DNA of 16,034 nucleotides from positions 1-16,034 of the forward strand of contig JBGSNL010000061.1 in NCBI GenBank assembly GCA_041739675.1, given 5' to 3'. Of the stretch, positions 2-15,923 are shown piece after piece; position 1 is the first letter of the stretch, and every line of letters starts with the position of its first letter. The stretch comes from a bacterium (GTDB lineage Bacteria > UBA10199 > 2-02-FULL-44-16 > DYJF01). Position numbers and translations under genes: made by a program. The notes beneath the pieces were generated by a model. That model was given only the letters and a program-made list of their open reading frames with translations. It did not search any database and had not been told where the DNA came from.

Positions 2-1108
2 AAGTTTGCTCTGGCCGCGCTTCACATGGTGAAACATCCTGCCAGATTTTTCTCGACGACGCTTGTCGGCACGAACATCTGCACGGTCACTGGTTCCGTT
101 GTCCTGACACTTTTCCTGATATCACGTTATGGTGAAGCGTATGCGCCGCTTGCAATTTTATACTGGCCTTTCACGTTGATTCTTGGGGAGATGGTTCCCA
201 AGAGCATTTATCAGTATTACGCGAATCGGATGGTCCTCAAGGTTGCACCCGTGCTTTTTGTCATTTCATGGGTGCTTACACCCATCATCTGGCCGCTCAC
301 GAAACTCACGGATCTTTTGCTGGGCGGGGTGAAGAAGCGTTTCGGGGCCGAGCCGCCGCTCACGCGCGAGGAGCTGGAGTTGATGCTCGAAGCCGGTGCG
401 GAGAGCACCAGCGACGTTAAACCGGCCGAACGCACAATGATCTCGCGCATCTTCGATCTCGCCGACAAAAAAGTGGCCAACATAATGACGCCGCTTGTAG
501 ATGTCGTTGCGATCCCCGCCGATTCGGCGCGCGAAGAGGCAGCAAAGGTTTTGGAGCAGACCGGGTACTCCCGCGTTCCTGTCTATCAGGGAAGAGTGTT
601 CAACGTCGTGGGGGTCTTGACCGGCACCGATCTTCTTTTCAGCGATGAAGACACTGATGTAAGCTCGCTTGTGAAGCCCGCCTATTACGTTCCAGAGGAT
701 ATGCCGTTGGACGAGCTTCTTTTGACGATGAAGCGAAAGCACCAGCCTCTGGCTGTCGTCGTCGACGAGTTCGGCGGCGCAACAGGCATCGTCACATCCG
801 AGGATCTTCTGGAAGAAGTGGTGGGCGAGATCAGAGACGAACATGATGTGGAGGCCCAGCTCTACTATAGAGTGGGCCACCATCATTATATAGCCAGCGG
901 CAGGATGGAAATAGAGCAGGCAAATGAGCGCTTAAAACTTCAGATTCCGCCGGGAGATTATGAAACGATCGCAGGTTTTTTGCTGAAAGAGGTGGAGCGA
1001 ATTCCGAAGGCGGGCGAGAGCGTTACAATCGACGGCTGGATCTACACGATCAGACGAGCAAACGAGAGGGCGATACAGGAAGTTGAGATAGTGGAGAAGC
1101 CCAAATGA
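2..1108 (+). CDS. CNNM/CorB (HlyC/CorC, 'hemolysin family') membrane protein with CBS pair and CorC domain; 5'-truncated by the window edge
   Basis: The frame is open from base 2 (KFALAALHM...), so the true start is upstream. It shows hydrophobic DUF21-type segments ([15 protein letters not shown]), CBS motifs ([40 protein letters not shown]) and a C-terminal CorC-like motif (YETIAGFL...RIP..GE). Confidence 0.9.
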
Positions 1109-2238
1109 GCGTTGCGTATTTCGACTGTTTTTCGGGAATAGCCGGCGACATGGTCCTTGGCGCCATGGTGGACGCCGGCATGCCGCTTTCATATTTGAAG
1201 CGCGAGCTTTCGAAAATCTCCATCGGAGGTTATGAGATCAGTAAAAAGCAAAAAGGAAGGGTGATAAGCGGGACGAATCTTCACGTGGCGACAAGGCGCG
1301 AGCTTGCCAGAAGCGACTATAAGACGATCAAAAATCTCATTGCAAAGTCGAAGCTTCATGACCGTGTGAAAAAAATCGCACAGCTGATTTTCTACCGGCT
1401 GGCAGAGGCAGAATCAAAAGTTCACGGCGTGGGGGTAGGGGATGCGCATTTTCATGAAGTGGGCGCGGTGGATTCGATCGTCGACGTTGTGGGGAGTGCG
1501 ATAGGTTTTGAATATTTCGGATTCAGGGAAATTTTTTCGTCTCCACTTCCGATTACAAGAGGAAGGGTACGCTCGATGCATGGGATGCTTACCGTTCCGG
1601 CGCCGGCGACATTGCATCTGATCAAGGGCGTTCCATTGGAGAAGGCCCCGGTCAAAGACGAGATCGTAACGCCCACGGGTGCGGCGATCATCACGACTGT
1701 CGCGAAACATTTTGGCGAATGTCCGCTTCAGAAAATTGAAAAGGTGGGATACGGATACGGAGACAAGACTTTTCCGGGAATTCCAAACGCGCTGCGCCTG
1801 ATGATAGGCGAGGGTTATCCTGTTATCGTGATCGAGGCGAACATCGACGACATGAATCCGCAAATTTTCGATTACGTGATGGAGCGCTTGTTTGATGCCG
1901 GCGCCGTAGATGTTGTGCTCCAGCCCGTACAGATGAAAAAGAACCGCCCAGCAATCCTTCTGCAGTGCCAGGTTCCGTGGGATAAGAAAGACAAAGCGAT
2001 AGATGTAATCTTGCGGGAGACGACAACGCTGGGCGTGAGATACTATCCGGTCGAGAGAAAGGTTTTAACGCGTGAGCTGAGAACGATTAAGACGAAAAGC
2101 GGAAGGATCAGGATCAAAATTGCGATGGATGATAAAGGTAAAATCGTGAAGCGCATCCCCGAATACGAAGATGTCAAACGCCTCGCTAAAAAAAGCGGAA
2201 AGTCGATTCAAGCCATTCTCAATGAAGTTAAAAATTGA
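1105..2238 (+). CDS. larC: Nickel pincer cofactor biosynthesis protein LarC (Ni insertase), single full-length ORF
   Basis: Motifs FDCFSGIAGDMVLGA, HFHEVGAVDSIVD, VPAPAT, TPTGAA, EANIDDM, MKKNRP, ETTTLGVR and PEYED. ATGA overlap with the upstream gene. Confidence 0.93.
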   Translation: MSVAYFDCFSGIAGDMVLGAMVDAGMPLSYLKRELSKISIGGYEISKKQKGRVISGTNLHVATRRELARSDYKTIKNLIAKSKLHDRVKKIAQLIFYRLAEAESKVHGVGVGDAHFHEVGAVDSIVDVVGSAIGFEYFGFREIFSSPLPITRGRVRSMHGMLTVPAPATLHLIKGVPLEKAPVKDEIVTPTGAAIITTVAKHFGECPLQKIEKVGYGYGDKTFPGIPNALRLMIGEGYPVIVIEANIDDMNPQIFDYVMERLFDAGAVDVVLQPVQMKKNRPAILLQCQVPWDKKDKAIDVILRETTTLGVRYYPVERKVLTRELRTIKTKSGRIRIKIAMDDKGKIVKRIPEYEDVKRLAKKSGKSIQAILNEVKN

Positions 2239-7951: not shown

Positions 7952-9166
7952 GTGAGAAAGCGTGTACTTTTCGTCGTGGCGGTTGCCTGCCTCGCGGGCG
8001 CCGTTCTGGCCGCCATTTCAACTTCACAATATTTGAGAATTCATGAGAAGGGGATGGAGGAGAAAAGTTTTTGCGCGATCTCCGAAGTCATAGATTGCGA
8101 CATCGCCTCCGCCAGCTCGTATTCAAGTGTCGCCGGGATGCCAATTGCATGGTTCGGGCTTGTCGCCTATCTGCTGATCGGCAGCATGGCCCTCTTCGGC
8201 GCGATATCCAAAAAAAATCGGAAGTCCTCCGTCGCCGTCGCGTGGTTTCTCTCAATCTTCGCGCTTCTTTATTCTATAAGGATGGCCTACCTTCTCTTCG
8301 CGGTGCTGGGCGTTGCCTGCATTGAGTGCATCGGGATGTACATTGTCAATGTCATCGCCGCCTTCGGGCTCTGGCGCGCGCTTAATACCCCTCTGAAAGA
8401 TACGGGAAAATTCTTTTTGGATTACATCAGGGCGGTTTTCAAAAAACCTTCAGGTCTTGGCTTTCAACCGAAGATCGTGGCGCACGCATTCGTCGTAATA
8501 GCCGCGTTCGGTATCGGCGCGGCCGTCATCTACAATTTGCAGGGAGGACCGGCGCAGAAGGGCGTGACGCTCAAGGAAAAGATAAACGCACACTACATGC
8601 AGTCGCTGTATGATATTCCTGTGAACCCTGACTGGCCGGTGTGGGGAAACCCAGATGGTGCGGTCACGATAATCGAGTTTTCGGATTTCGAATGCCCGTT
8701 TTGCAGACTCGCCGCTTTCAACGTCAGGCCGTATCTTCAGGAGTTCAAAAAAGACGTGCGGTTCTATTTTGTGAATTATCCGCTCGACCAGTCGTGCAAC
8801 CCTTACCTTGAGCATCCGATGCACATGAACGCCTGCTTGGCTGCATATGCCGTCGAGTGCGCCAACAAGCTCGGCGATTTCTGGAGCTTTCACGACGACG
8901 TTTTCAAGTTGAAGAAAAACATGAACAGGGATGCCATCATCGGCCTTGCCGAAAAAAGGAACTGGAACCCGCAGGAATTCGCGGCATGCCTGGATTCGGA
9001 GGAGACAAAAAAACGAATTCTCGCCGATATCGAAGCCGGAAAGAGGGCCTACATATCGGGTACGCCTTCTCTGATAATCGATGGAAGAAGATTGAAGTAC
9101 TGGCGGGATCCCAATTTTCTGCAGGCGGTCGTGAAAGAGGAAAAAAAGCGCGCAAAGTCCCGCTAG
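7952..9166 (+). CDS. Vitamin K epoxide reductase (VKOR) domain fused to a DsbA-like thioredoxin-fold domain
   Basis: GTG start after GGGGAG. VKOR loop cysteines (FCAISEVIDCD..SSYS, GMPIAWFG), a CIEC redox motif in the transmembrane region, and a C-terminal DsbA domain (VTIIEFSDFECPFC, YPL, cis-Pro motif GTPS). Confidence 0.9.
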   Translation: MRKRVLFVVAVACLAGAVLAAISTSQYLRIHEKGMEEKSFCAISEVIDCDIASASSYSSVAGMPIAWFGLVAYLLIGSMALFGAISKKNRKSSVAVAWFLSIFALLYSIRMAYLLFAVLGVACIECIGMYIVNVIAAFGLWRALNTPLKDTGKFFLDYIRAVFKKPSGLGFQPKIVAHAFVVIAAFGIGAAVIYNLQGGPAQKGVTLKEKINAHYMQSLYDIPVNPDWPVWGNPDGAVTIIEFSDFECPFCRLAAFNVRPYLQEFKKDVRFYFVNYPLDQSCNPYLEHPMHMNACLAAYAVECANKLGDFWSFHDDVFKLKKNMNRDAIIGLAEKRNWNPQEFAACLDSEETKKRILADIEAGKRAYISGTPSLIIDGRRLKYWRDPNFLQAVVKEEKKRAKSR

Positions 9167-10383
9167 TCGTTGACGTGGCTTTGCGCCTCTATGGATTCGT
9201 AGAAGTTTATTGCCTTTCTCACATATCTTCTCTTGTCGGCGTAGTCCCCAGGGAAGAAGCTCCGTTTAAATCCGTATATAATGATGTCTTTCAAGCGCTC
9301 CGGCGAGATGTCAAAACCCTTCACTGCGAGGTCGATCTCGTTCGTCACCGTCGTATTTGAAACCAGTCTGTTGTCCGTGCAGAATGTCGTTGAAAGACGA
9401 TTCTCAAGCATCTTTCTGAACGGATGGTGTGAAAGCTCTTTCAAGTGCGGGATCGTCTGAAGATTCGAAGTCAGGCATATCTCTATGGTGATGCGCCTGT
9501 CCGCGATATGCTGCGCAAGATCTTTCACGTATTTTTCTTTTTCATTTTCGCCGGGCAGGTCGATCATATCTACGTCGAAAAGATGAGTGCCGTGTCCTAT
9601 GCGGTCCGCGTGGCAATCGGTGATGGCTTGGAAGATGGAGGCCGGCCCATATGCCTCGCCGGCATGGACCGTTTTCTTCAAAAAACTCTTGTTTGCAATG
9701 TCGTAGGCCTGGCGATGATCCTCCGCTGGGTAGCCCTTTTCCGCGCCCGCCAGATCCACCCCCACAACAGGTACGCCGTCAGAGTCGCGCGATCTTATTA
9801 GTGCGCGCGCAAGATCTTTTGACGCCAGCCCGAAGAGCTCTTCCTGGGGCATGTCTCGATGGAGTCCTATGAGGGTGCGGTAGTAGCCCGAAAAATGCTC
9901 GTTGAACATCCTGAGCGCGCAGCCGATGATCCCGTATTCGAACGGTGGCTCTCCCCCTTCCACGATCTCGGTGCGGGAATTTATCTCCTTCTTCGCGCGG
10001 TCGAAACCGCGGGCCACGCTTTTCAAAACTTCATCGATGGAAAGTGCCGCATTGACGTGAAGCTGCGGCGCGAATCTCGGTTCGATGTAGCGCACCCCCT
10101 CCGCGAATGCATCCTGTCCTAGTTCGTACGATATCCTTTCGATCGCCTCCGGCGTCTGCATCACCGCGCACGTGTATTGAAAACCCTGAAGGTATTCCAC
10201 AAGATCCTTGTAACGGTCCTTGAAGACAAGCTCTTTCAAGCCCTCCACCGTGTGCGAGGGCAGAGCGATCTTCTGGCTCTTGGCAAGCTCTATCAGCGTG
10301 GGGAGTCTCAAGCTCCCGTCAAGATGGCAATGGAGATCAGTCTTGGGGAGTTTTTTGATAAGATCTTTGGTGAGAATTTTCAT
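9163..10383 (-). CDS. add: Adenosine deaminase family amidohydrolase (406 aa)
   Basis: True start is ATG 10383 (MKILTKDLIKKLPKTDLHCHLDGSLR), overlapping the porB stop as ATGA. Motifs YIEPRFAP, GVDLAGAE, TVHAGEAYG, RIGHG, EICLTSN and TDNR. The exact substrate is uncertain. Confidence 0.88.
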   Translation of the reverse strand: MKILTKDLIKKLPKTDLHCHLDGSLRLPTLIELAKSQKIALPSHTVEGLKELVFKDRYKDLVEYLQGFQYTCAVMQTPEAIERISYELGQDAFAEGVRYIEPRFAPQLHVNAALSIDEVLKSVARGFDRAKKEINSRTEIVEGGEPPFEYGIIGCALRMFNEHFSGYYRTLIGLHRDMPQEELFGLASKDLARALIRSRDSDGVPVVGVDLAGAEKGYPAEDHRQAYDIANKSFLKKTVHAGEAYGPASIFQAITDCHADRIGHGTHLFDVDMIDLPGENEKEKYVKDLAQHIADRRITIEICLTSNLQTIPHLKELSHHPFRKMLENRLSTTFCTDNRLVSNTTVTNEIDLAVKGFDISPERLKDIIIYGFKRSFFPGDYADKRRYVRKAINFYESIEAQSHVND

Positions 10384-11288
10384 TGGGCCTGTTTTTTCAA
10401 CTGTTCCCAATTGTGATCTACCTGGCGCTGGATCTCGGCCACCTGCTCTTCTTTGAGATGTCTGAAGCGCCCCTGGATCTTCAAATATTCTTTGACCGGG
10501 ATGCCCTTCGGCTCGATGTTGATGACCGTGCGTTCGCCGTCGAAGATTTCGTACATCGGAAAGAGTTTCGATTCGACCGCGCGCCGCATCGACTCGACGC
10601 TTAACTCGCTCGCAATCTTCCAGCCGGCCGTGCACGAACAGAGAATGTGTATGAATCGGAACCCCTTGATTGTCTTGGCCTTGGCGAACTTTGCCATAAG
10701 ATCGTGCGGATATCCGGCCGATGTCGTGGCGACATATGGTATTTTGTGGGCCGCCATGATCTGGTCGATCGGTTTTTTGGGGACCATCTTGGGATAGTCG
10801 GTGGGAGTTGTCGTCGTCCACGCATAGAGTGGAGTTGCCGAGGAGCGCTGTATGCCCGTGTTCATGTAGGCTTCGTTGTCGTAGCAGACGCAGATGACGT
10901 TTTCATTTCTTTCCGCCGCGGCGGAAAGAGATTGAAGGCCGATATCGAACGTTCCGCCGTCCCCGGCCCAGCCCATTATAGTTGTTTCGGTTTTCCCCTG
11001 AATATCTAGCGCCGCTCGCACGCCTGAAACTGCAGCGCCGGTGGTTTCGAACGCCGTGTGCATGAGCGGAAGCTTGAGATTCGAGTAGGGGAAAGGTCCC
11101 GGGATAACCGCCCAGCAACAAGCCGGGATGACGACGACAGTGTCCTCTCCCAATGCCTTGAGTGCGAGTCTCATAGCGATAGCCGCTCCGCATCCGGGAC
11201 ACGCAAGATGCCCCGACGTCATTAGTTCGGATGCCGGATACTGCTGCGGCGCAACGCCTTGGCCTGATGTTCTGGGATCTGTTATCAT
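10380..11288 (-). CDS. porB: 2-oxoacid:acceptor oxidoreductase beta subunit (TPP-binding; PorB/VorB type)
   Basis: GHLACPGCG, ACC, TPP motif GDGGTFDIG...DNEAYMNTGIQRS and YLKIQGRFRHL. ATG 11288 overlaps the alpha subunit stop (ATGA). Confidence 0.9.
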   Translation of the reverse strand: MITDPRTSGQGVAPQQYPASELMTSGHLACPGCGAAIAMRLALKALGEDTVVVIPACCWAVIPGPFPYSNLKLPLMHTAFETTGAAVSGVRAALDIQGKTETTIMGWAGDGGTFDIGLQSLSAAAERNENVICVCYDNEAYMNTGIQRSSATPLYAWTTTTPTDYPKMVPKKPIDQIMAAHKIPYVATTSAGYPHDLMAKFAKAKTIKGFRFIHILCSCTAGWKIASELSVESMRRAVESKLFPMYEIFDGERTVINIEPKGIPVKEYLKIQGRFRHLKEEQVAEIQRQVDHNWEQLKKQAQ

Positions 11289-12460
11289 TTCTTGAGCCCC
11301 ACCCAAACCGGAGCGCTGCCCGGTTTATCCTGATCTTTTGCCGATTGATACGCTTCGATTATAGTGTCGACGGTGATGTCTCTGCCGCCAAGCCCCACAA
11401 GGAAGCTGAAGATTTCGGGGATCCTGGGCTGTCCGCACAACGCGGCTCTTATCTCCTGCGCCCAGATTCCGCCGGCCCCGTGGCTGATATTGCGGTCGAG
11501 AACCGCTATCTTCTTCACGATTGTCCTGCCGTCAACGTTTGCGATCGCGTTTTTAATCTCCTCGACCGGGAACGGCCTGAACATGCGGAGCTTCAGAAGG
11601 CCCACCTGTTCGCCTTTTTCGCGAAGTCTGTCCACGGCAACGCGCGCCGTTGAGGTCATCGAGCCGCTTGTCACGAGAACGATCTCCGCGTCTTCGGTTC
11701 TGTAAGTTTCTGCTATGTCGTGCATGCGCTTGAAACGTTTTGCATAATCCTTTGCGATCGCGCGGTATGTATCCCTCACCTTGGCGTGCGCCTCTTCCAT
11801 TATATATCTGAATTCCATGTAGTGTTCCGGGCCGGTGAGCGCGCTGAAGGTGAGAGGATTTTTAGGATCGAGAGTGAACTTGGCTTTTCTGGGAGGAAGG
11901 AACTTGTCGACATCGTCCTGATCGGGAATATCCACCGCCTCGTACGTGTGCGAAAGAATGAACGCGTCGTATATGACCATAACGGGAAGATCGGTCTCCT
12001 CGGCGAGTTTGAATGCCATGATCGTGGCGTCTAAAACCTCCTGGTTCGTTTCACAGTAGATCTGAATCCAGCCTGTGTCCCTTTGCGCGAGCGAATCTGT
12101 CTGGTCGCTCCAGATGGACCATCCCGGGGCCATTGCGCGGTTGACATCGGTCATGACGATGGGGAGCCTCGCGTATGCCGCCCAGAATAAAAGTTCGTGC
12201 ATCAGGGCGAGCCCCTGCGCGGACGTCGCGGTGAACGTGCGCGCTCCCGCCTGCGACGCGCCGATGAGGCAAGCCATTGCGGAGTGCTCCGATTCCACTT
12301 TTATAAACTGGGCCTTGAGCCGCCCGTCGGCGCACATCTCCGAGAGCTCCTCCACGATCTGCGTCTGCGGCGTGATTGGGTAGGCCGATATCACCTGCGC
12401 GCGCGCCAGGCGGACGCCGTGAGAGGTGGCATGATTTCCCATCAGGACTTCTTGCATCAT
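11285..12460 (-). CDS. porA: 2-oxoacid:acceptor oxidoreductase alpha subunit (PorA/VorA type)
   Basis: MGNHA, AYPITPQT, VESEHSAM, TATSAQGLALMHE, RDTGWIQ, RMFRPFP and GLGGRD. Start is ATG 12460 or 12457, after GGAG. Confidence 0.92.
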   Translation of the reverse strand: MMQEVLMGNHATSHGVRLARAQVISAYPITPQTQIVEELSEMCADGRLKAQFIKVESEHSAMACLIGASQAGARTFTATSAQGLALMHELLFWAAYARLPIVMTDVNRAMAPGWSIWSDQTDSLAQRDTGWIQIYCETNQEVLDATIMAFKLAEETDLPVMVIYDAFILSHTYEAVDIPDQDDVDKFLPPRKAKFTLDPKNPLTFSALTGPEHYMEFRYIMEEAHAKVRDTYRAIAKDYAKRFKRMHDIAETYRTEDAEIVLVTSGSMTSTARVAVDRLREKGEQVGLLKLRMFRPFPVEEIKNAIANVDGRTIVKKIAVLDRNISHGAGGIWAQEIRAALCGQPRIPEIFSFLVGLGGRDITVDTIIEAYQSAKDQDKPGSAPVWVGLKK

Positions 12461-14262
12461 ATCTCCGTGGGTTCTTCTATCAGTTCCAGCGCGGCCCGCG
12501 GGCACTCGTGCACGCAGACGCCGCATCCTTTGCAATATGTGAAATCAAAGGCATATCCGCCCGTGACCTTCGCGATCGATATGTCCGGGCAATAGATAAA
12601 GCAGTTGTCGCACTCCGTGCAGCGGCCGCAGTGGAAGCAGCGCGAAAGCTCGTCTGAAACGACGTCTTTCGACGGGGCCTGGTGCACTTCAGAGAAGGGG
12701 CGGGTGCCCAGCCTGTCTTCAACGGAGCGCATCGGATATTCGTTCGGTTTCGATTCCCAGAAATAGGCTGTATTGAGATCCTCGAATTTCGCGATCCTGT
12801 TCTTGGCAACGACGACGGGAGATGCTTCGGGCGTTTTTTCCGCCTCGAGATAGCGAAGGTAATCTCCCATCCTCACCGAATTCGAATCGCCTATTTTTAT
12901 TTTTTGGAACACCAGATCGAAATCGTCTTTTCTGAAAAAACAATCGATCGCGATAGCGGATCTTTTTCCCGCAGCCATTGCGTCAACCGCCGTGCGTGGC
13001 TGATTTATGAAATCGCCGCCGGCGAAGACGTTGTGCCATTCGGTCCTGCCGCCTTGCTTTGTTGCAAGCGCGCCCTTGTGAATGGCCAGGGCGGATGGGA
13101 TGATGGCGGTCTCAATCTCTTCTCCCACCGCGGAAAGAACCGAGTTGGCCTCAAATGTGATCTCGGAGCCCGGGACCGCGACGGGCGATCTTCTTCCGGA
13201 TTCGTCGGGTTCGCCAAGTTTCGCGCGGTCGCATACGAGCCCTGCGGCTCTGCCGTCCTTCACGACGACGCTCTTCGGCATGACGAGAAATTCGATCTTG
13301 ATGCCTTCGGCCAGCGCCTCTTTCACTTCCGATTCGAATGCCGGCATCTCTTCGCGCGAGCGGCGGTATAAAACCGTGACGTCGCCTCCGAAGCGCTTGG
13401 CGGTCCGGGCGGCGTCGATTGCCGTGTTGCCGCCTCCAACCACAAGCACCTTCTTGCCGAGCGGGGGCGCCTTGCCCTGCGCCGTGAGATCAAGGAATGT
13501 GAGCCCGGGCATCACGCCTTCCGTTTTTTCGTCTGGAATTCCAAGCGCGCGGCTCCTGTGAGCGCCTATCGCGAGATATATGGCGTCGTATTCCTGCCGT
13601 AGCATCTGCATGGCCGCCGCGTCTCTTATCGATTTTCCGAACTGGAACTCTACGCCCATTTTTTTCAGGCGGTCTATTTCGATATCGAGAACGTCTTTGG
13701 GAAGGCGGTACTCCGGAATTCCGTAGCGTAACACTCCGCCGCCTCTGGCGTTTCTTTCCATGACGACTGCCTTATGGCCAAGCCTTGTCAGATGATAAGC
13801 GCATGCCAATCCCGCCGGTCCGCTGCCAACGATCGCCACTTTTTTCTTCGACAGCGTCCTGAATGGTTTTGCAACCGGAGGATTCGCACCAACCTTGTCG
13901 GCCAGAACACGCTCTAACATCTGGATAGATATGGAGCCGCCAAGCTCTTTCCTGTTGCAGCCCTCCTGGCACGGATGGAAGCACACGCGCCCCATGAGGG
14001 CGGGAAACGGGTTTTCAATAATCGCCTTCTCCCACGCCTCTTCAACTTTGCCCTTCTCAAGAAGTTTGATCCATGCCTCGATGTTGTTTGCGGTGGGGCA
14101 TGACGCCTGACAGGCGGGTATCTGATCGACGTACTGCGGGCGAAGATAGCGCCACGTGCCTGTTTCGTTCCACGTCATGAGCGCGGCGGACATCGTGCAA
14201 TAGGGCATTTCAGAAGCGCCCTTGAAAGTCGTAGGTTTCGGATGTTTTTTCGTTTCCTTCAT
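12457..14262 (-). CDS. GltD/NfnB-like FAD- and NAD(P)-binding Fe-S oxidoreductase fused with a PorD-like 2[4Fe-4S] domain
   Basis: PACQASCP and NPFP..MGRVCFHPCQEGCNR Fe-S motifs; FAD motif VAIVGSGPAGL; GGVLRYGIPEYRLP; second dinucleotide motif VVGGGNTAIDAAR followed by YRRS..EMPA; VFAGGD; C-terminal RCFHCG, CTECDNCFIYCP and YCKGCGVCVHECP. GAGGTG RBS. Confidence 0.88.
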   Translation of the reverse strand: MKETKKHPKPTTFKGASEMPYCTMSAALMTWNETGTWRYLRPQYVDQIPACQASCPTANNIEAWIKLLEKGKVEEAWEKAIIENPFPALMGRVCFHPCQEGCNRKELGGSISIQMLERVLADKVGANPPVAKPFRTLSKKKVAIVGSGPAGLACAYHLTRLGHKAVVMERNARGGGVLRYGIPEYRLPKDVLDIEIDRLKKMGVEFQFGKSIRDAAAMQMLRQEYDAIYLAIGAHRSRALGIPDEKTEGVMPGLTFLDLTAQGKAPPLGKKVLVVGGGNTAIDAARTAKRFGGDVTVLYRRSREEMPAFESEVKEALAEGIKIEFLVMPKSVVVKDGRAAGLVCDRAKLGEPDESGRRSPVAVPGSEITFEANSVLSAVGEEIETAIIPSALAIHKGALATKQGGRTEWHNVFAGGDFINQPRTAVDAMAAGKRSAIAIDCFFRKDDFDLVFQKIKIGDSNSVRMGDYLRYLEAEKTPEASPVVVAKNRIAKFEDLNTAYFWESKPNEYPMRSVEDRLGTRPFSEVHQAPSKDVVSDELSRCFHCGRCTECDNCFIYCPDISIAKVTGGYAFDFTYCKGCGVCVHECPRAALELIEEPTEI

Positions 14263-14820
14263 CTATATTCTCACCTCGGCAAAGGCGTCGCGCGCGGCGG
14301 CGGCGTTTGCCTCCGGCTTGATCGGCACTCCCTTTTCGACGGCCTTGCAAACCGAATCTATCGAACAGATTTCCGTGACTTTTATGAACGCGCCAAGAAT
14401 TGCGGTGTTGACGATGGGGCTCGTGGCCGAACCCACTTTATGTTTTATCGCTATCGCGTTCGCGTCCACAGTCGCTATGCGATTCTCCGCGAGTCTTGGG
14501 TTCTTGCGAAAAACTTCCGGATCGTGCTTCGTGTTGATTAGAATCACGCCGCCCGGCTTGAAGCCGTCGAAAGTGGCGGGGTTGTTCATGAGTGTTGAGT
14601 CAAGGATGATGAGGTGATCGGGATGATAAATGTTGTGCCGCAGATTGATCTGATGATCGTCTATCCTCACGAACGCCGTGACCGGCGCGCCGCGTCTTTC
14701 GACGCCGAATGCCGGGAAGGCCTGGACGAATTTGCCTTCGGAAAAAACCGCGGTGGCCAGAATTTTGCCGCCGATGACCGCGCCCTGTCCGCCGCGTCCG
14801 TGGAGCCTGATCTCAATCAT
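14263..14820 (-). CDS. porC: 2-oxoacid:acceptor oxidoreductase gamma subunit (PorC type)
   Basis: MIEIRLHGRGGQGAV, QAFPAFGVERRGAPV.AFVRI and IVNTAILGA. Confidence 0.93.
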   Translation of the reverse strand: MIEIRLHGRGGQGAVIGGKILATAVFSEGKFVQAFPAFGVERRGAPVTAFVRIDDHQINLRHNIYHPDHLIILDSTLMNNPATFDGFKPGGVILINTKHDPEVFRKNPRLAENRIATVDANAIAIKHKVGSATSPIVNTAILGAFIKVTEICSIDSVCKAVEKGVPIKPEANAAAARDAFAEVRI

Positions 14821-14846: not shown

Positions 14847-14874
14847 ACATTATCTTTTTTAAAGTGTATGTCAA
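14847..14874 (-). promoter_or_regulatory. Putative sigma70 promoter for the oxidoreductase operon
   Basis: On the minus strand: TTGACA (14874-14869, overlapping the DUF362 stop codon), 16 nt, then TAATGT (14852-14847), 26 nt before the porC ATG. Confidence 0.5.
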
Positions 14875-15923
14875 CCCACCGTTATGAGCTCGTAGGAAGG
14901 GGTTCCCAGCCCCATTTTCTCGGCGTGAGCGAGCTGCACGGTGTAATCGATATTGGGGTGGGCCTTTTTGAGGACGTCGGTTGCATCCGCCTTCAGAACA
15001 AGATCCAGCGCCGCGCGGTCAATGGCCAGAGGATCGGCCGACGCAAGAATTCCGATATCTTCCAGAAGCGGTTTTTCGCCAAAACTTATGCAGTCGCAAT
15101 TGGGCGTGATGTGATAGACAAACGAGACGCAGAAGATTTTTTTATTCTTCACCGCGCCCGCCGCGTACTCCGCAAGTTTCTCCTGCACGTTTTTTCCGGG
15201 CTCGCTCCATTTGATGCCGAGCGCTTCTTCCGCGCACGCTATTATACACTCTCCGCAACCGGCGCATTTTGCCGTGTCGAGCTTTATCTTTCCGTCGACG
15301 ACCATGAGTGCGTCCTGCTGGCATACCTCGACGCACGCCCCGCAACCCGTGCAATTTTTTTCCGTGACGGCCGGCGAAACAGTGGAGTGCATCTCAAATT
15401 TTCCGAGGCGCGCGCCGCATCCCATTCCCAGATTTTTGATGGCGCCGCCGAATCCCGTGAGCAGGTGCCCCTTGAAGTGGGAGACGGCTATTATCGCGTC
15501 CGCATCCGCTATCCCCCGCGCGATCTTCACCTTTTTGAAATGACGGCCGTCAACTTCAATTTCCTCATAGGGTTTTAGGGCGTCTGCGTCGGCTATGACG
15601 ACGGGCACGCTCAGTTTTTCCTCCGAAAATCCGTGCTCGGCCGCAACGGCCAGATGGCCTGCCGTGTTGTTCCTCTCGCCGTGGTAGATCGTGTTCGTAT
15701 CGGTCAAAAATGGATGTGCCGTCGCTTCATGCGCCATCTTTATGACAGGTTCAAAATATACGGGCCTGATGTAACCGTCGTTTCCCTTTTCGCCAAAGTG
15801 CGTCTTGATCGCCACCGACTCATCTTTGCCTAGTATGTCCGACAAACCGGCCACCTCAAGCAACTCAGAAAGCTTTTCTTTCCGCGCCCACGGCAAAAAC
15901 CAAACCTTTGACCTTTTGTTCAT
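14871..15923 (-). CDS. DUF362 domain protein with inserted 2[4Fe-4S] ferredoxin domain
   Basis: VAIKTHFGEKGN, PFLTDTNTIY.G.R, SHFKGH..TGFGGAIKNLGMGC..R.GK..MH, ferredoxin motifs CTGCGACVEVC and CAGCGECIIAC, then ITPNCDC and DIGILASADPLAID. Confidence 0.88.
   Translation of the reverse strand: MNKRSKVWFLPWARKEKLSELLEVAGLSDILGKDESVAIKTHFGEKGNDGYIRPVYFEPVIKMAHEATAHPFLTDTNTIYHGERNNTAGHLAVAAEHGFSEEKLSVPVVIADADALKPYEEIEVDGRHFKKVKIARGIADADAIIAVSHFKGHLLTGFGGAIKNLGMGCGARLGKFEMHSTVSPAVTEKNCTGCGACVEVCQQDALMVVDGKIKLDTAKCAGCGECIIACAEEALGIKWSEPGKNVQEKLAEYAAGAVKNKKIFCVSFVYHITPNCDCISFGEKPLLEDIGILASADPLAIDRAALDLVLKADATDVLKKAHPNIDYTVQLAHAEKMGLGTPSYELITVG

What the first reader, a model, noticed from the sequence alone, without database searches (positions are those of the whole stretch)
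14871..15923. DUF362-ferredoxin protein carries a LarA-like nickel-pincer binding motif: candidate NPN-dependent redox enzyme
Seen: residues 153-180 read HLLTGFGGAIKNLGMGCGARLGKFEMHS, i.e. H153-x9-K163-x15-H179 (nt 15467-15387), followed at once by a 2[4Fe-4S] ferredoxin insert. Established: in Lactiplantibacillus plantarum lactate racemase LarA, His174 is catalytic, Lys184 covalently tethers the nickel-pincer nucleotide and His200 ligates Ni. The spacing is identical, and the local context as I recall it (HFFAGFSGGRKS...NHS) is similar. The Ni-inserting enzyme LarC is encoded in this window, with no larA here. Inference: this protein may bind NPN and, instead of returning the hydride as a racemase does, pass electrons to its Fe-S clusters. 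That would make it an NPN-dependent 2-hydroxyacid dehydrogenase or oxoacid reductase, which fits its position directly upstream of a 2-oxoacid oxidoreductase operon. Caveats: larC is about 13 kb away on the other strand, the shared motif could reflect fold homology only, and I cannot check whether this link is already published.
Basis: partly seen in the sequence, partly recalled or inferred. Interest (0 to 1): 0.85.

Follow-up and report, generated by a model that had tools for sequence, protein, structure and literature searches.

The report
LarA-like ferredoxin protein, likely nickel-pincer enzyme
This uncharacterised iron-sulfur protein is built like the cofactor-binding half of lactate racemase and keeps three of its key active-site residues, in a bacterium that has the genes to make the nickel-pincer cofactor but no known enzyme to use it, so it is a good but untested candidate for a nickel-pincer redox enzyme.

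Summary
Observation confirmed. The gene at 14871-15923 (−) encodes DUF362 with an inserted 2[4Fe-4S] ferredoxin. H153/K163/H179 align with LarA H174/K184/H200 and are kept in 141, 143 and 142 of 144 homologues. The AlphaFold model's best matches are LarA structures (Z 16-19, next unrelated fold 5.7). The genome (94.6% complete) has larB, larC and larE; no LarA, aldo-keto reductase or ornithine cyclodeaminase was found. Full-length larC occurs in 18 of 19 relatives carrying the gene and 0 of 21 without it. Ferredoxin-less DUF362 genes abut larBCE in five loci. Against: in Clostridia 25 of 49 carriers lack all of larBCE (42 of 74 LarA carriers lack the full set too); no lar gene lay near this subfamily in 98 loci; cofactor binding is untested. 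The hydroxyacid/oxoacid reading is unsupported: LarA's substrate domain is missing, and the oxidoreductase operon follows the gene directly in only 1 of 16 relatives. Best reading: a nickel-pincer oxidoreductase wired to Fe-S clusters, substrate unknown (about 0.5). Pfam already groups the two families in one clan; no paper found proposes cofactor use. The scan noted DUF362 beside larBCE before, on other DNA.

The parts
14871..15923 (-). DUF362 protein with inserted 2[4Fe-4S] ferredoxin (350 aa); LarA N-terminal-domain fold
15387..15467 (-). H153-x9-K163-x15-H179 segment, aligned to LarA H174/K184/H200 (also G168 = G189, and K175, invariant in the family but not a LarA residue)
15234..15353 (-). 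Ferredoxin insert, C191-C230: two CxxCxxCxxxC motifs starting 12 residues after H179
15090..15098 (-). C276-D277-C278 motif, kept also in ferredoxin-less relatives; no LarA counterpart found
15672..15806 (-). N-terminal conserved residues K40, H42, Y80, R84 (candidate phosphate or substrate contacts; inferred)
1105..2238 (+). larC, full length (LarC1 + LarC2); same genome, not the same operon. larB (contig C61) and larE (contig C41) lie outside the window
10380..14820 (-). porC, GltD-like/PorD fusion, porA, porB: adjacent 2-oxoacid oxidoreductase operon; adjacency not conserved, probably a neighbour and not a part

Best explanation
The protein is a cytoplasmic nickel-pincer-dependent oxidoreductase. 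Shown: it is the LarA cofactor-binding domain without LarA's substrate domain, with a two-cluster ferredoxin inserted right after the His that matches LarA's nickel ligand. Inferred: it binds NPN made by the scattered larB, larE and larC genes, with H179 on nickel and K163 as thioamide tether (or non-covalently); H153 takes a proton while a hydride passes from substrate to the cofactor; with no second base to hand the hydride back, the cofactor is re-oxidised one electron at a time (through nickel, perhaps through a site formed by the Cys-Asp-Cys motif) into the two [4Fe-4S] clusters and on to the ferredoxin pool, or the reverse. The substrate is unknown; K40, H42, Y80, R84, H149 and K175 suggest an anionic one. 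A 2-hydroxyacid is possible (about 0.15 overall) but has no specific support.
For: Fold: LarA chains are the five best of 48,161 (Z 19.1, rmsd 3.1 A over 221 residues for 9eia; Z 16.1-18.8 for four others; best non-ferredoxin, non-LarA row Z 5.7); all 14 rows shown from Foldseek ranks 1-19 are LarA-family. Profile alignment puts H153/K163/G168/H179 on H174/K184/G189/H200; conservation 141, 143, 144, 142 of 144. Genome has larB, larC, larE over cut-off; Lar_N, TIGR00300, PF02423 and PF00248 not found. Relatives: full larC in 18 of 19 carriers and 0 of 21 others, larE in 18 of 19, larB in 4 of 4 tested, Lar_N in 0 of 26. Distant carriers: larC in 17 of 22 without LarA and 22 of 27 with LarA. Clostridia: larBCE in 22 of 49 carriers against 59 of 250 others; LarA gives 32 of 74 against 49 of 225. 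Ferredoxin-less relatives with the same K40/Y80/R84/H149/H153/K163/K175/H179/CDC lie beside lar genes in G368, G527, G568 and in 2 of 80 metagenome loci; two carry a flavodoxin domain. Precedent for NPN in intermolecular hydride transfer: NphT, PMC13524815.
Against: No binding or activity data. 25 of 49 Clostridia carriers lack all of larB, larC and larE, 13 of them also lack LarA, and the motif is intact in all 18 such loci read. B. thetaiotaomicron has a DUF362 and no larC (controls). 10 of 50 distant carriers lack larC. No larB, larC or larE near this subfamily in 98 loci. In the own class, carriers are also the Fe-S-rich genomes, kin are not independent, and 7 of the 21 non-carriers have larE plus a LarC2 domain. 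In Clostridia, carriers with larBCE have larger genomes than carriers without (sizes), a confound not corrected. The profile match is modest (probability 56, E 1e-4) and unreliable in the N-terminal half, so R75, D72 and H108 could not be placed. Many ferredoxin-less relatives begin with what look like signal or lipoprotein peptides, which is awkward for a cofactor made in the cytoplasm. Coupling of NPN to Fe-S clusters has no precedent in the papers read.
Confidence: 0.5

Rival explanations
1. An NPN-independent Fe-S or metal protein that shares an ancestral fold with LarA. The Lys, His and Arg residues bind another phosphorylated ligand or a metal (with the Cys-Asp-Cys motif), and co-occurrence with larBCE reflects anaerobic lifestyle and genome size.
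For: 25 of 49 Clostridia carriers lack larBCE with the motif intact; B. thetaiotaomicron control; no lar neighbour in 98 loci of this subfamily; family-specific invariants with no LarA counterpart; lifestyle and size confounds.
Against: The residues shared with LarA are two of its three named NPN ligands and one catalytic His. LarA itself lacks the full larBCE set in 42 of 74 genomes of the same sample, so absence of larBCE does not separate the two. Sister proteins abut lar genes in five loci. No other NPN client was found in this genome.
Confidence: 0.28
2. An NPN carrier, salvage or repair protein, not a metabolic enzyme: it binds the cofactor or a precursor at the LarA-like site, and the ferredoxin keeps it reduced or supports maturation; exported relatives with an ArsP-type permease move the cofactor across the membrane.
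For: No substrate domain. ArsP_1 permease in 49 of 80 loci of the ferredoxin-less clade; G368 and G568 join DUF362, larBCE and the permease. Among genomes lacking larBCE, carriers have LarA more often (9 of 25 against 30 of 182).
Against: This genome has no other known client for a carrier to serve. H153 and the many invariant polar residues look catalytic. LarBCE alone load LarA in E. coli (PMC11796402).
Confidence: 0.14
3. An NPN-dependent isomerase or racemase with hidden redox, as in LarA, in which the ferredoxin insert replaces the C-terminal lid or only activates the enzyme.
For: All characterised LarA-fold proteins are racemases or epimerases (PMC11770544, PMC13524815); H174 equivalent kept; other conserved His residues (H42, H149) could be a second base.
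Against: K298/Q295 domain absent and no H108 match; fusion to ferredoxin at two positions and to flavodoxin points to net electron transfer.
Confidence: 0.08

Closest known systems
LarA superfamily (DUF2088, Lar_N PF09861 + LarA_C PF21113; PDB 5HUQ, 6C1W, 9EIA, 7S91, 4NAR, 9Q3J)
   Same: N-terminal cofactor-binding fold (Z 16-19); H174, K184, G189, H200 equivalents; similar co-occurrence with larBCE; same Pfam clan CL0471 (PMC11770544).
   Different: No C-terminal substrate domain; no clear H108, R75 or D72; 14-18% identity in the structural alignments; 2[4Fe-4S] insert after the Ni-ligand His; own invariants K40, H42, Y80, R84, H149, K175, C276-D-C278; below the Lar_N cut-off.
DUF362 family (PF04015), ferredoxin-inserted type annotated 'uncharacterized Fe-S center protein'
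   Same: The protein is an ordinary member: 160 bits; 6,414 hits at E <= 0.001 among 7,999 candidates scored; 516 50%-identity representatives at E <= 1e-30.
   Different: Nothing; no function is assigned to the family in the sources searched.
NphT, NPMN-dependent hydride transferase of the aldo-keto reductase family (PMC13524815)
   Same: Non-racemase use of the nickel pincer; His and Lys ligands; found in larBCE genomes without LarA.
   Different: TIM barrel, no Fe-S clusters, hydride moves between two sugars; no aldo-keto reductase found in this genome.
NPAD-dependent ornithine cyclodeaminase (Desguin 2025; seen only as cited in PMC13524815)
   Same: A further client of larBCE-type genes in genomes without LarA.
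   Different: Dinucleotide cofactor, non-covalent; TIGR00300 (my recalled guess at its family) and PF02423 not found in this genome.

Membership tests
DUF362 (PF04015) | Score over the Pfam cut-off | tested here: met
   160.2 bits against 24, profile positions 1-200
2[4Fe-4S] ferredoxin domain | Two CxxCxxCxxxC motifs in a ferredoxin fold | tested here: met
   C191-C201 and C220-C230; seven Cys in 144 of 144, C194 in 139; Z 9.5 to 1dur
LarA superfamily | N-terminal NPN-binding domain fold | tested here: met
   Z 16.1-19.1, rmsd 3.0-3.7 A, 213-229 residues; Foldseek E 1.4e-7
LarA superfamily | Nickel ligand H200 | tested here: met
   H179 by profile alignment, 142 of 144; sequence-level only, no coordinates available
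LarA superfamily | Cofactor-tethering K184 | tested here: met
   K163 by profile alignment, 143 of 144
LarA superfamily | Catalytic H174 | tested here: met
   H153, 141 of 144
LarA superfamily | Catalytic H108 | tested here: inconclusive
   Two alignments give different registers and neither places a His there; low confidence in this stretch
LarA superfamily | R75 (NPN contact) and D72 | tested here: inconclusive
   Fall on the K40-N48 loop with a gap; K40, H42 or R84 could substitute
LarA superfamily | C-terminal substrate domain with Q295 and K298 | tested here: not met
   No LarA_C hit; residues 240-350 give probability 0.6 against the LarA alignment; the protein ends 110 residues after the insert
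LarA superfamily | Lar_N score over cut-off | tested here: not met
   16.4 bits against 23.3
Nickel-pincer-dependent enzymes | Host encodes LarB, LarC, LarE | tested here: met
   All three over cut-off in this genome; only 22 of 49 Clostridia carriers have all three
Nickel-pincer-dependent enzymes | Binds NPN and needs it for activity | not testable with these tools
   Needs mass spectrometry, nickel analysis and an assay
NphT-type aldo-keto reductases | TIM-barrel aldo-keto reductase domain | tested here: not met
   No PF00248 hit at E <= 0.01; the fold matches LarA

The most novel reading that the evidence does not exclude
DUF362 is a large, overlooked family of nickel-pincer enzymes, and this type is a nickel-pincer/iron-sulfur oxidoreductase that converts hydride transfer into single-electron transfer, the first link between this cofactor and ferredoxin-level metabolism. 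The family would then explain a share of the genomes that have larBCE without larA (in the control set, Synechococcus elongatus has larB, larC, larE and DUF362 but no Lar_N or TIGR00300 hit), and its exported members with an ArsP-type permease would imply that the cofactor is moved between cells or compartments.
Probability: 0.4. Interest if true: 0.88.

Novelty: new variant of a known kind. Interest (0 to 1): 0.66.

Why it matters
About 15% of genomes in an early survey have larBCE without larA (PMC11796402, Introduction), and only two other client families are named in the papers read. DUF362 is widespread, has no function, and was used by LarA specialists only as an outgroup. A one-step mass-spectrometry test exists. 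A positive result would assign a cofactor to thousands of proteins, add a nickel enzyme class, and show new chemistry: a pincer cofactor wired to iron-sulfur clusters. This small genome is a clean case because no other known client was found in it.

Tried and rejected
Sequence search of the PDB finds only ferredoxin matches, and NCBIfam has no family over cut-off among the 25 rows shown. ESM Atlas returns only DUF362-ferredoxin clusters, with no structure search. Neighbourhood gives no substrate clue: no gene family recurs in more than 12 of 98 loci, apart from the gene itself and frames overlapping it. Operon link to por genes rejected as not conserved. larC-in-window as operon evidence rejected: opposite strand, housekeeping genes between; the same regional order in G002. 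Promoter and terminator scan uninformative (2 sites against 0.9 expected; no terminator on the gene's strand). The class of G082 held one weak hit in 200 sampled genomes, so no co-occurrence test was possible there. No RNA holder listed. Residue-level 3D superposition could not be done because model coordinates are not returned. No complex prediction was run: the cofactor is not among the ligands. The 2025 ornithine cyclodeaminase paper is not held. PMC10134865 and PMC8305020 say nothing on DUF362 in the passages seen.

Full report
1. Observation. The window is the whole of contig C38 of a 1.91 Mb genome, 94.6% complete. The ORF at 14871-15923 (−) gives 350 residues. Pfam gives DUF362 (160 bits, cut-off 24), ferredoxin hits at 186-235 and a weak Lar_N hit on residues 131-178 (E 0.0052, under cut-off). 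larC (1105-2238, +) is full length, and porC, a GltD-like/PorD fusion, porA and porB follow the gene after 50 nt. The bare spacing H-x9-K-x15-H occurs in 18 of 1405 ORFs of 250 aa or more in this genome; only this one of the 18 also has LarA's two glycines.

2. Homology to LarA. I aligned the protein with 143 full-length homologues picked (A1). H153, K163, G168 and H179 are present in 141, 143, 144 and 142 of 144. K40 (144), H42 (134), Y80 (132), R84 (143), H149 (143), K175 (143) and C276-D277-C278 (143, 140, 142) are as well kept. The AlphaFold model is confident (pLDDT 95.9, pTM 0.92). Against 48,161 representative chains the five best are LarA-family structures (Z 19.1, rmsd 3.1 A over 221 residues for 9eia; 18.2 for 5huq; 16.1 for 4nar); ferredoxin-domain matches follow, and the best other fold scores 5.7. 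Foldseek agrees, as does a weaker model of a ferredoxin-less relative (Z 14.5-16.3, next 5.5). Profile alignment with 24 LarA proteins (A3) puts H153, K163, G168 and H179 on the columns of H174, K184, G189 and H200, numbered from the L. plantarum chain printed (probability 56, E 1e-4). PMC7583248 names R75, K184 and H200 as cofactor contacts and D72, H108, H174 and K298 as catalytic; PMC11851776 assigns carboxylate binding to R73, H107, H173, Q295 and K298 of the I. pallida enzyme. Here the C-terminal domain bearing Q295 and K298 is absent; H108, R75 and D72 cannot be placed, and neither of two registers puts a His on H108. Coordinates are not returned, so the overlay is shown at fold and alignment level only.

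3. This genome. larB (258 bits, cut-off 175), larE (286, cut-off 150) and larC are present on three contigs. Lar_N was not found. That search misses C. glutamicum, which has LarAH19 (control), so I also searched all six-frame ORFs with the A3 profile, whose only hit at E <= 0.5 was this protein, and with eight more divergent LarA homologues, which gave one hit at E 0.1. No aldo-keto reductase, TIGR00300 or PF02423 was found; that TIGR00300 is the family of the NPAD enzyme is my recalled guess. A second DUF362, with a C-terminal ferredoxin and H-x9-K-x14-H, lies on C82, so it is an equal candidate for the cofactor.

4. Co-occurrence. Among 40 relatives from the same genus to the same class, 19 carry the gene (one split over two contig ends) and 21 do not. 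Full-length larC is in 18 of the 19 (the miss is 78% complete) and 0 of the 21; 7 of the 21 have a LarC2 domain only. larE is in 18 of the 19 and in all of those 7; the other 14 were not searched. larB is in 4 of 4 tested. Lar_N was found in 0 of 26. These are kin, and carriers are the Fe-S-rich genomes (3-11 ferredoxin-type matches against 0-2). Of 80 distant GTDB loci I took 50, chosen for spread: larC in 40 of 50. Leaving out one duplicate of a class relative, larC is in 17 of 22 genomes without LarA and 22 of 27 with LarA. In 299 genomes of the class of G067 (Clostridia by its record title; centre and one unscored genome left out; a 90% completeness filter was asked for but cannot be checked), using a ferredoxin-free profile (A2): all three lar genes in 22 of 49 carriers of this subfamily (E <= 1e-60) against 59 of 250 others; in 45 of 103 with any hit against 36 of 196; among genomes without LarA, 10 of 24 against 36 of 188. 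LarA (E < 1e-30) gives 32 of 74 against 49 of 225. So the gene tracks larBCE as well as the known client does, but 25 of 49 carriers have none of the three genes, 13 of these lack LarA too, and the motif is intact in all 18 such loci read. No correction for phylogeny or genome size was made; carriers with larBCE are the larger genomes. Of 14 control genomes, 4 of 5 with DUF362 have larC; B. thetaiotaomicron does not.

5. Neighbourhood. For this subfamily no larB, larC or larE lay in 98 loci (80 of up to 10 kb per side, 18 of 1.5 kb), and no neighbour recurs in more than 12. In three relatives larC is on the same contig 10-27 kb away, which is regional synteny. The por operon follows directly in 1 of 16 wider relative loci (same genus), 4-7 kb away in two more, and in 1 of 80 distant loci. 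A ferredoxin-less sister clade keeps K40, Y80, R84, H149, H153, K163, K175, H179 and the Cys-Asp-Cys motif. It abuts larBCE in G527, G368 and G568, which I fetched because their coordinates showed adjacency (3 of 23 genomes with another DUF362 type and larBCE), and lies near lar genes in 2 of 80 metagenome loci, 2 of 47 among those of 5 kb or more. Its constant partner is an ArsP_1 permease (49 of 80), most members start with what look like signal or lipoprotein peptides by eye, and two are fused to flavodoxin.

6. Mechanism. Shown: LarA cofactor-domain fold, two of three named NPN ligands and one catalytic His, a ferredoxin starting 12 residues after the nickel-ligand equivalent, a genome able to make NPN with no known client found. 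Inferred: NPN binding (about 0.65-0.7); net redox through the clusters and not racemisation, because the substrate domain is missing and the domain is fused to electron carriers in three ways (about 0.5 overall); the Cys-Asp-Cys motif as a metal site or two-electron relay (a guess). Rivals: an NPN-independent Fe-S or metal protein (0.28), a cofactor carrier or salvage protein (0.14), a LarA-like isomerase (0.08).

7. What is known. Searches for DUF362 (14 papers) and for PF04015, IPR007160, COG2768, COG2006, DUF362 or CL0471 (15 papers), and four on nickel-pincer terms, found no paper proposing that DUF362 binds NPN. The library lacks most subscription journals. PMC11770544 (abstract, passages, section 4 seen) uses DUF362 as outgroup because it shares clan CL0471 with LarA, so the homology is known. 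PMC13524815 (abstract, first two of ten parts, Discussion, passages; 12 supplementary files searched without a DUF362 hit, 5 not searched) describes NphT and cites the NPAD ornithine cyclodeaminase, a paper I could not see and which may list DUF362 among larE neighbours. PMC11796402 (Introduction, passages) gives the 15% figure and the expression system. Passages only were seen of PMC7583248, PMC11851776, PMC12611868, PMC13510736, PMC7955657, PMC8305020 and PMC10134865. Eight earlier notes of this scan report DUF362 beside larBCE in other genomes; they are unchecked and not counted as support.

8. Verdict. The feature is real. The protein is a member of DUF362 and works most likely like the cofactor half of LarA, but it is not a member of the LarA superfamily as defined (substrate domain and cut-off not met). 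It is a credible, untested nickel-pincer/iron-sulfur oxidoreductase of unknown substrate. Novelty: new variant of a known kind. Interest 0.66.

Noticed in passing
window 10380-14820 (-): The 2-oxoacid oxidoreductase operon has its delta subunit fused to a GltD-like flavoprotein (NF009410 over cut-off), an arrangement recalling NAD-linked enzymes of the PadEFGHI type (recalled); seen also in G001, G007 and G018.
   Followed up: partly
G000:C82:61961-63016 (L002): Second DUF362 of another type, with C-terminal ferredoxin and H-x9-K-x14-H; cut by the contig end. An equal candidate for the cofactor in this genome.
   Followed up: partly
L183, L184 (G368:C34, G568:C7); L192-L271: Exported ferredoxin-less DUF362 proteins travel with an ArsP_1 permease (49 of 80 loci); two loci join DUF362, larBCE, the permease and a LysR regulator. 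Possible export or salvage module for the cofactor.
   Followed up: partly
class of G067: 42 of 74 genomes with a strong LarA hit lack the full larBCE set. Unexplained: salvage, another route, or incomplete assemblies.
   Followed up: no
G006, G010, G012, G028, G031, G033, G035: These relatives have larE and a LarC2 domain but no LarC1 match at E <= 1e-15, no Lar_N and no homologue of this protein; a nickel-free or variant pathway is possible.
   Followed up: no
control genomes: Synechococcus elongatus rings for larB, larC, larE and DUF362 but not for Lar_N or TIGR00300; Methanocaldococcus jannaschii rings for larBCE and TIGR00300 but not DUF362.
   Followed up: no
G000:C41:11639-12625: LarE here has CxxC plus a distal Cys, which would fit the [4Fe-4S]-dependent type (motif recalled).
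   Followed up: no
window 7952-9166 (+): VKOR-thioredoxin (DsbA-like) fusion between rpoD and the adenosine deaminase gene; conserved in G001, G002, G004 and G014.
   Followed up: no
L274, L278, L279: A DUF4438-like gene lies directly downstream of the DUF362 gene in three relatives (Pfam-confirmed in two).
   Followed up: no
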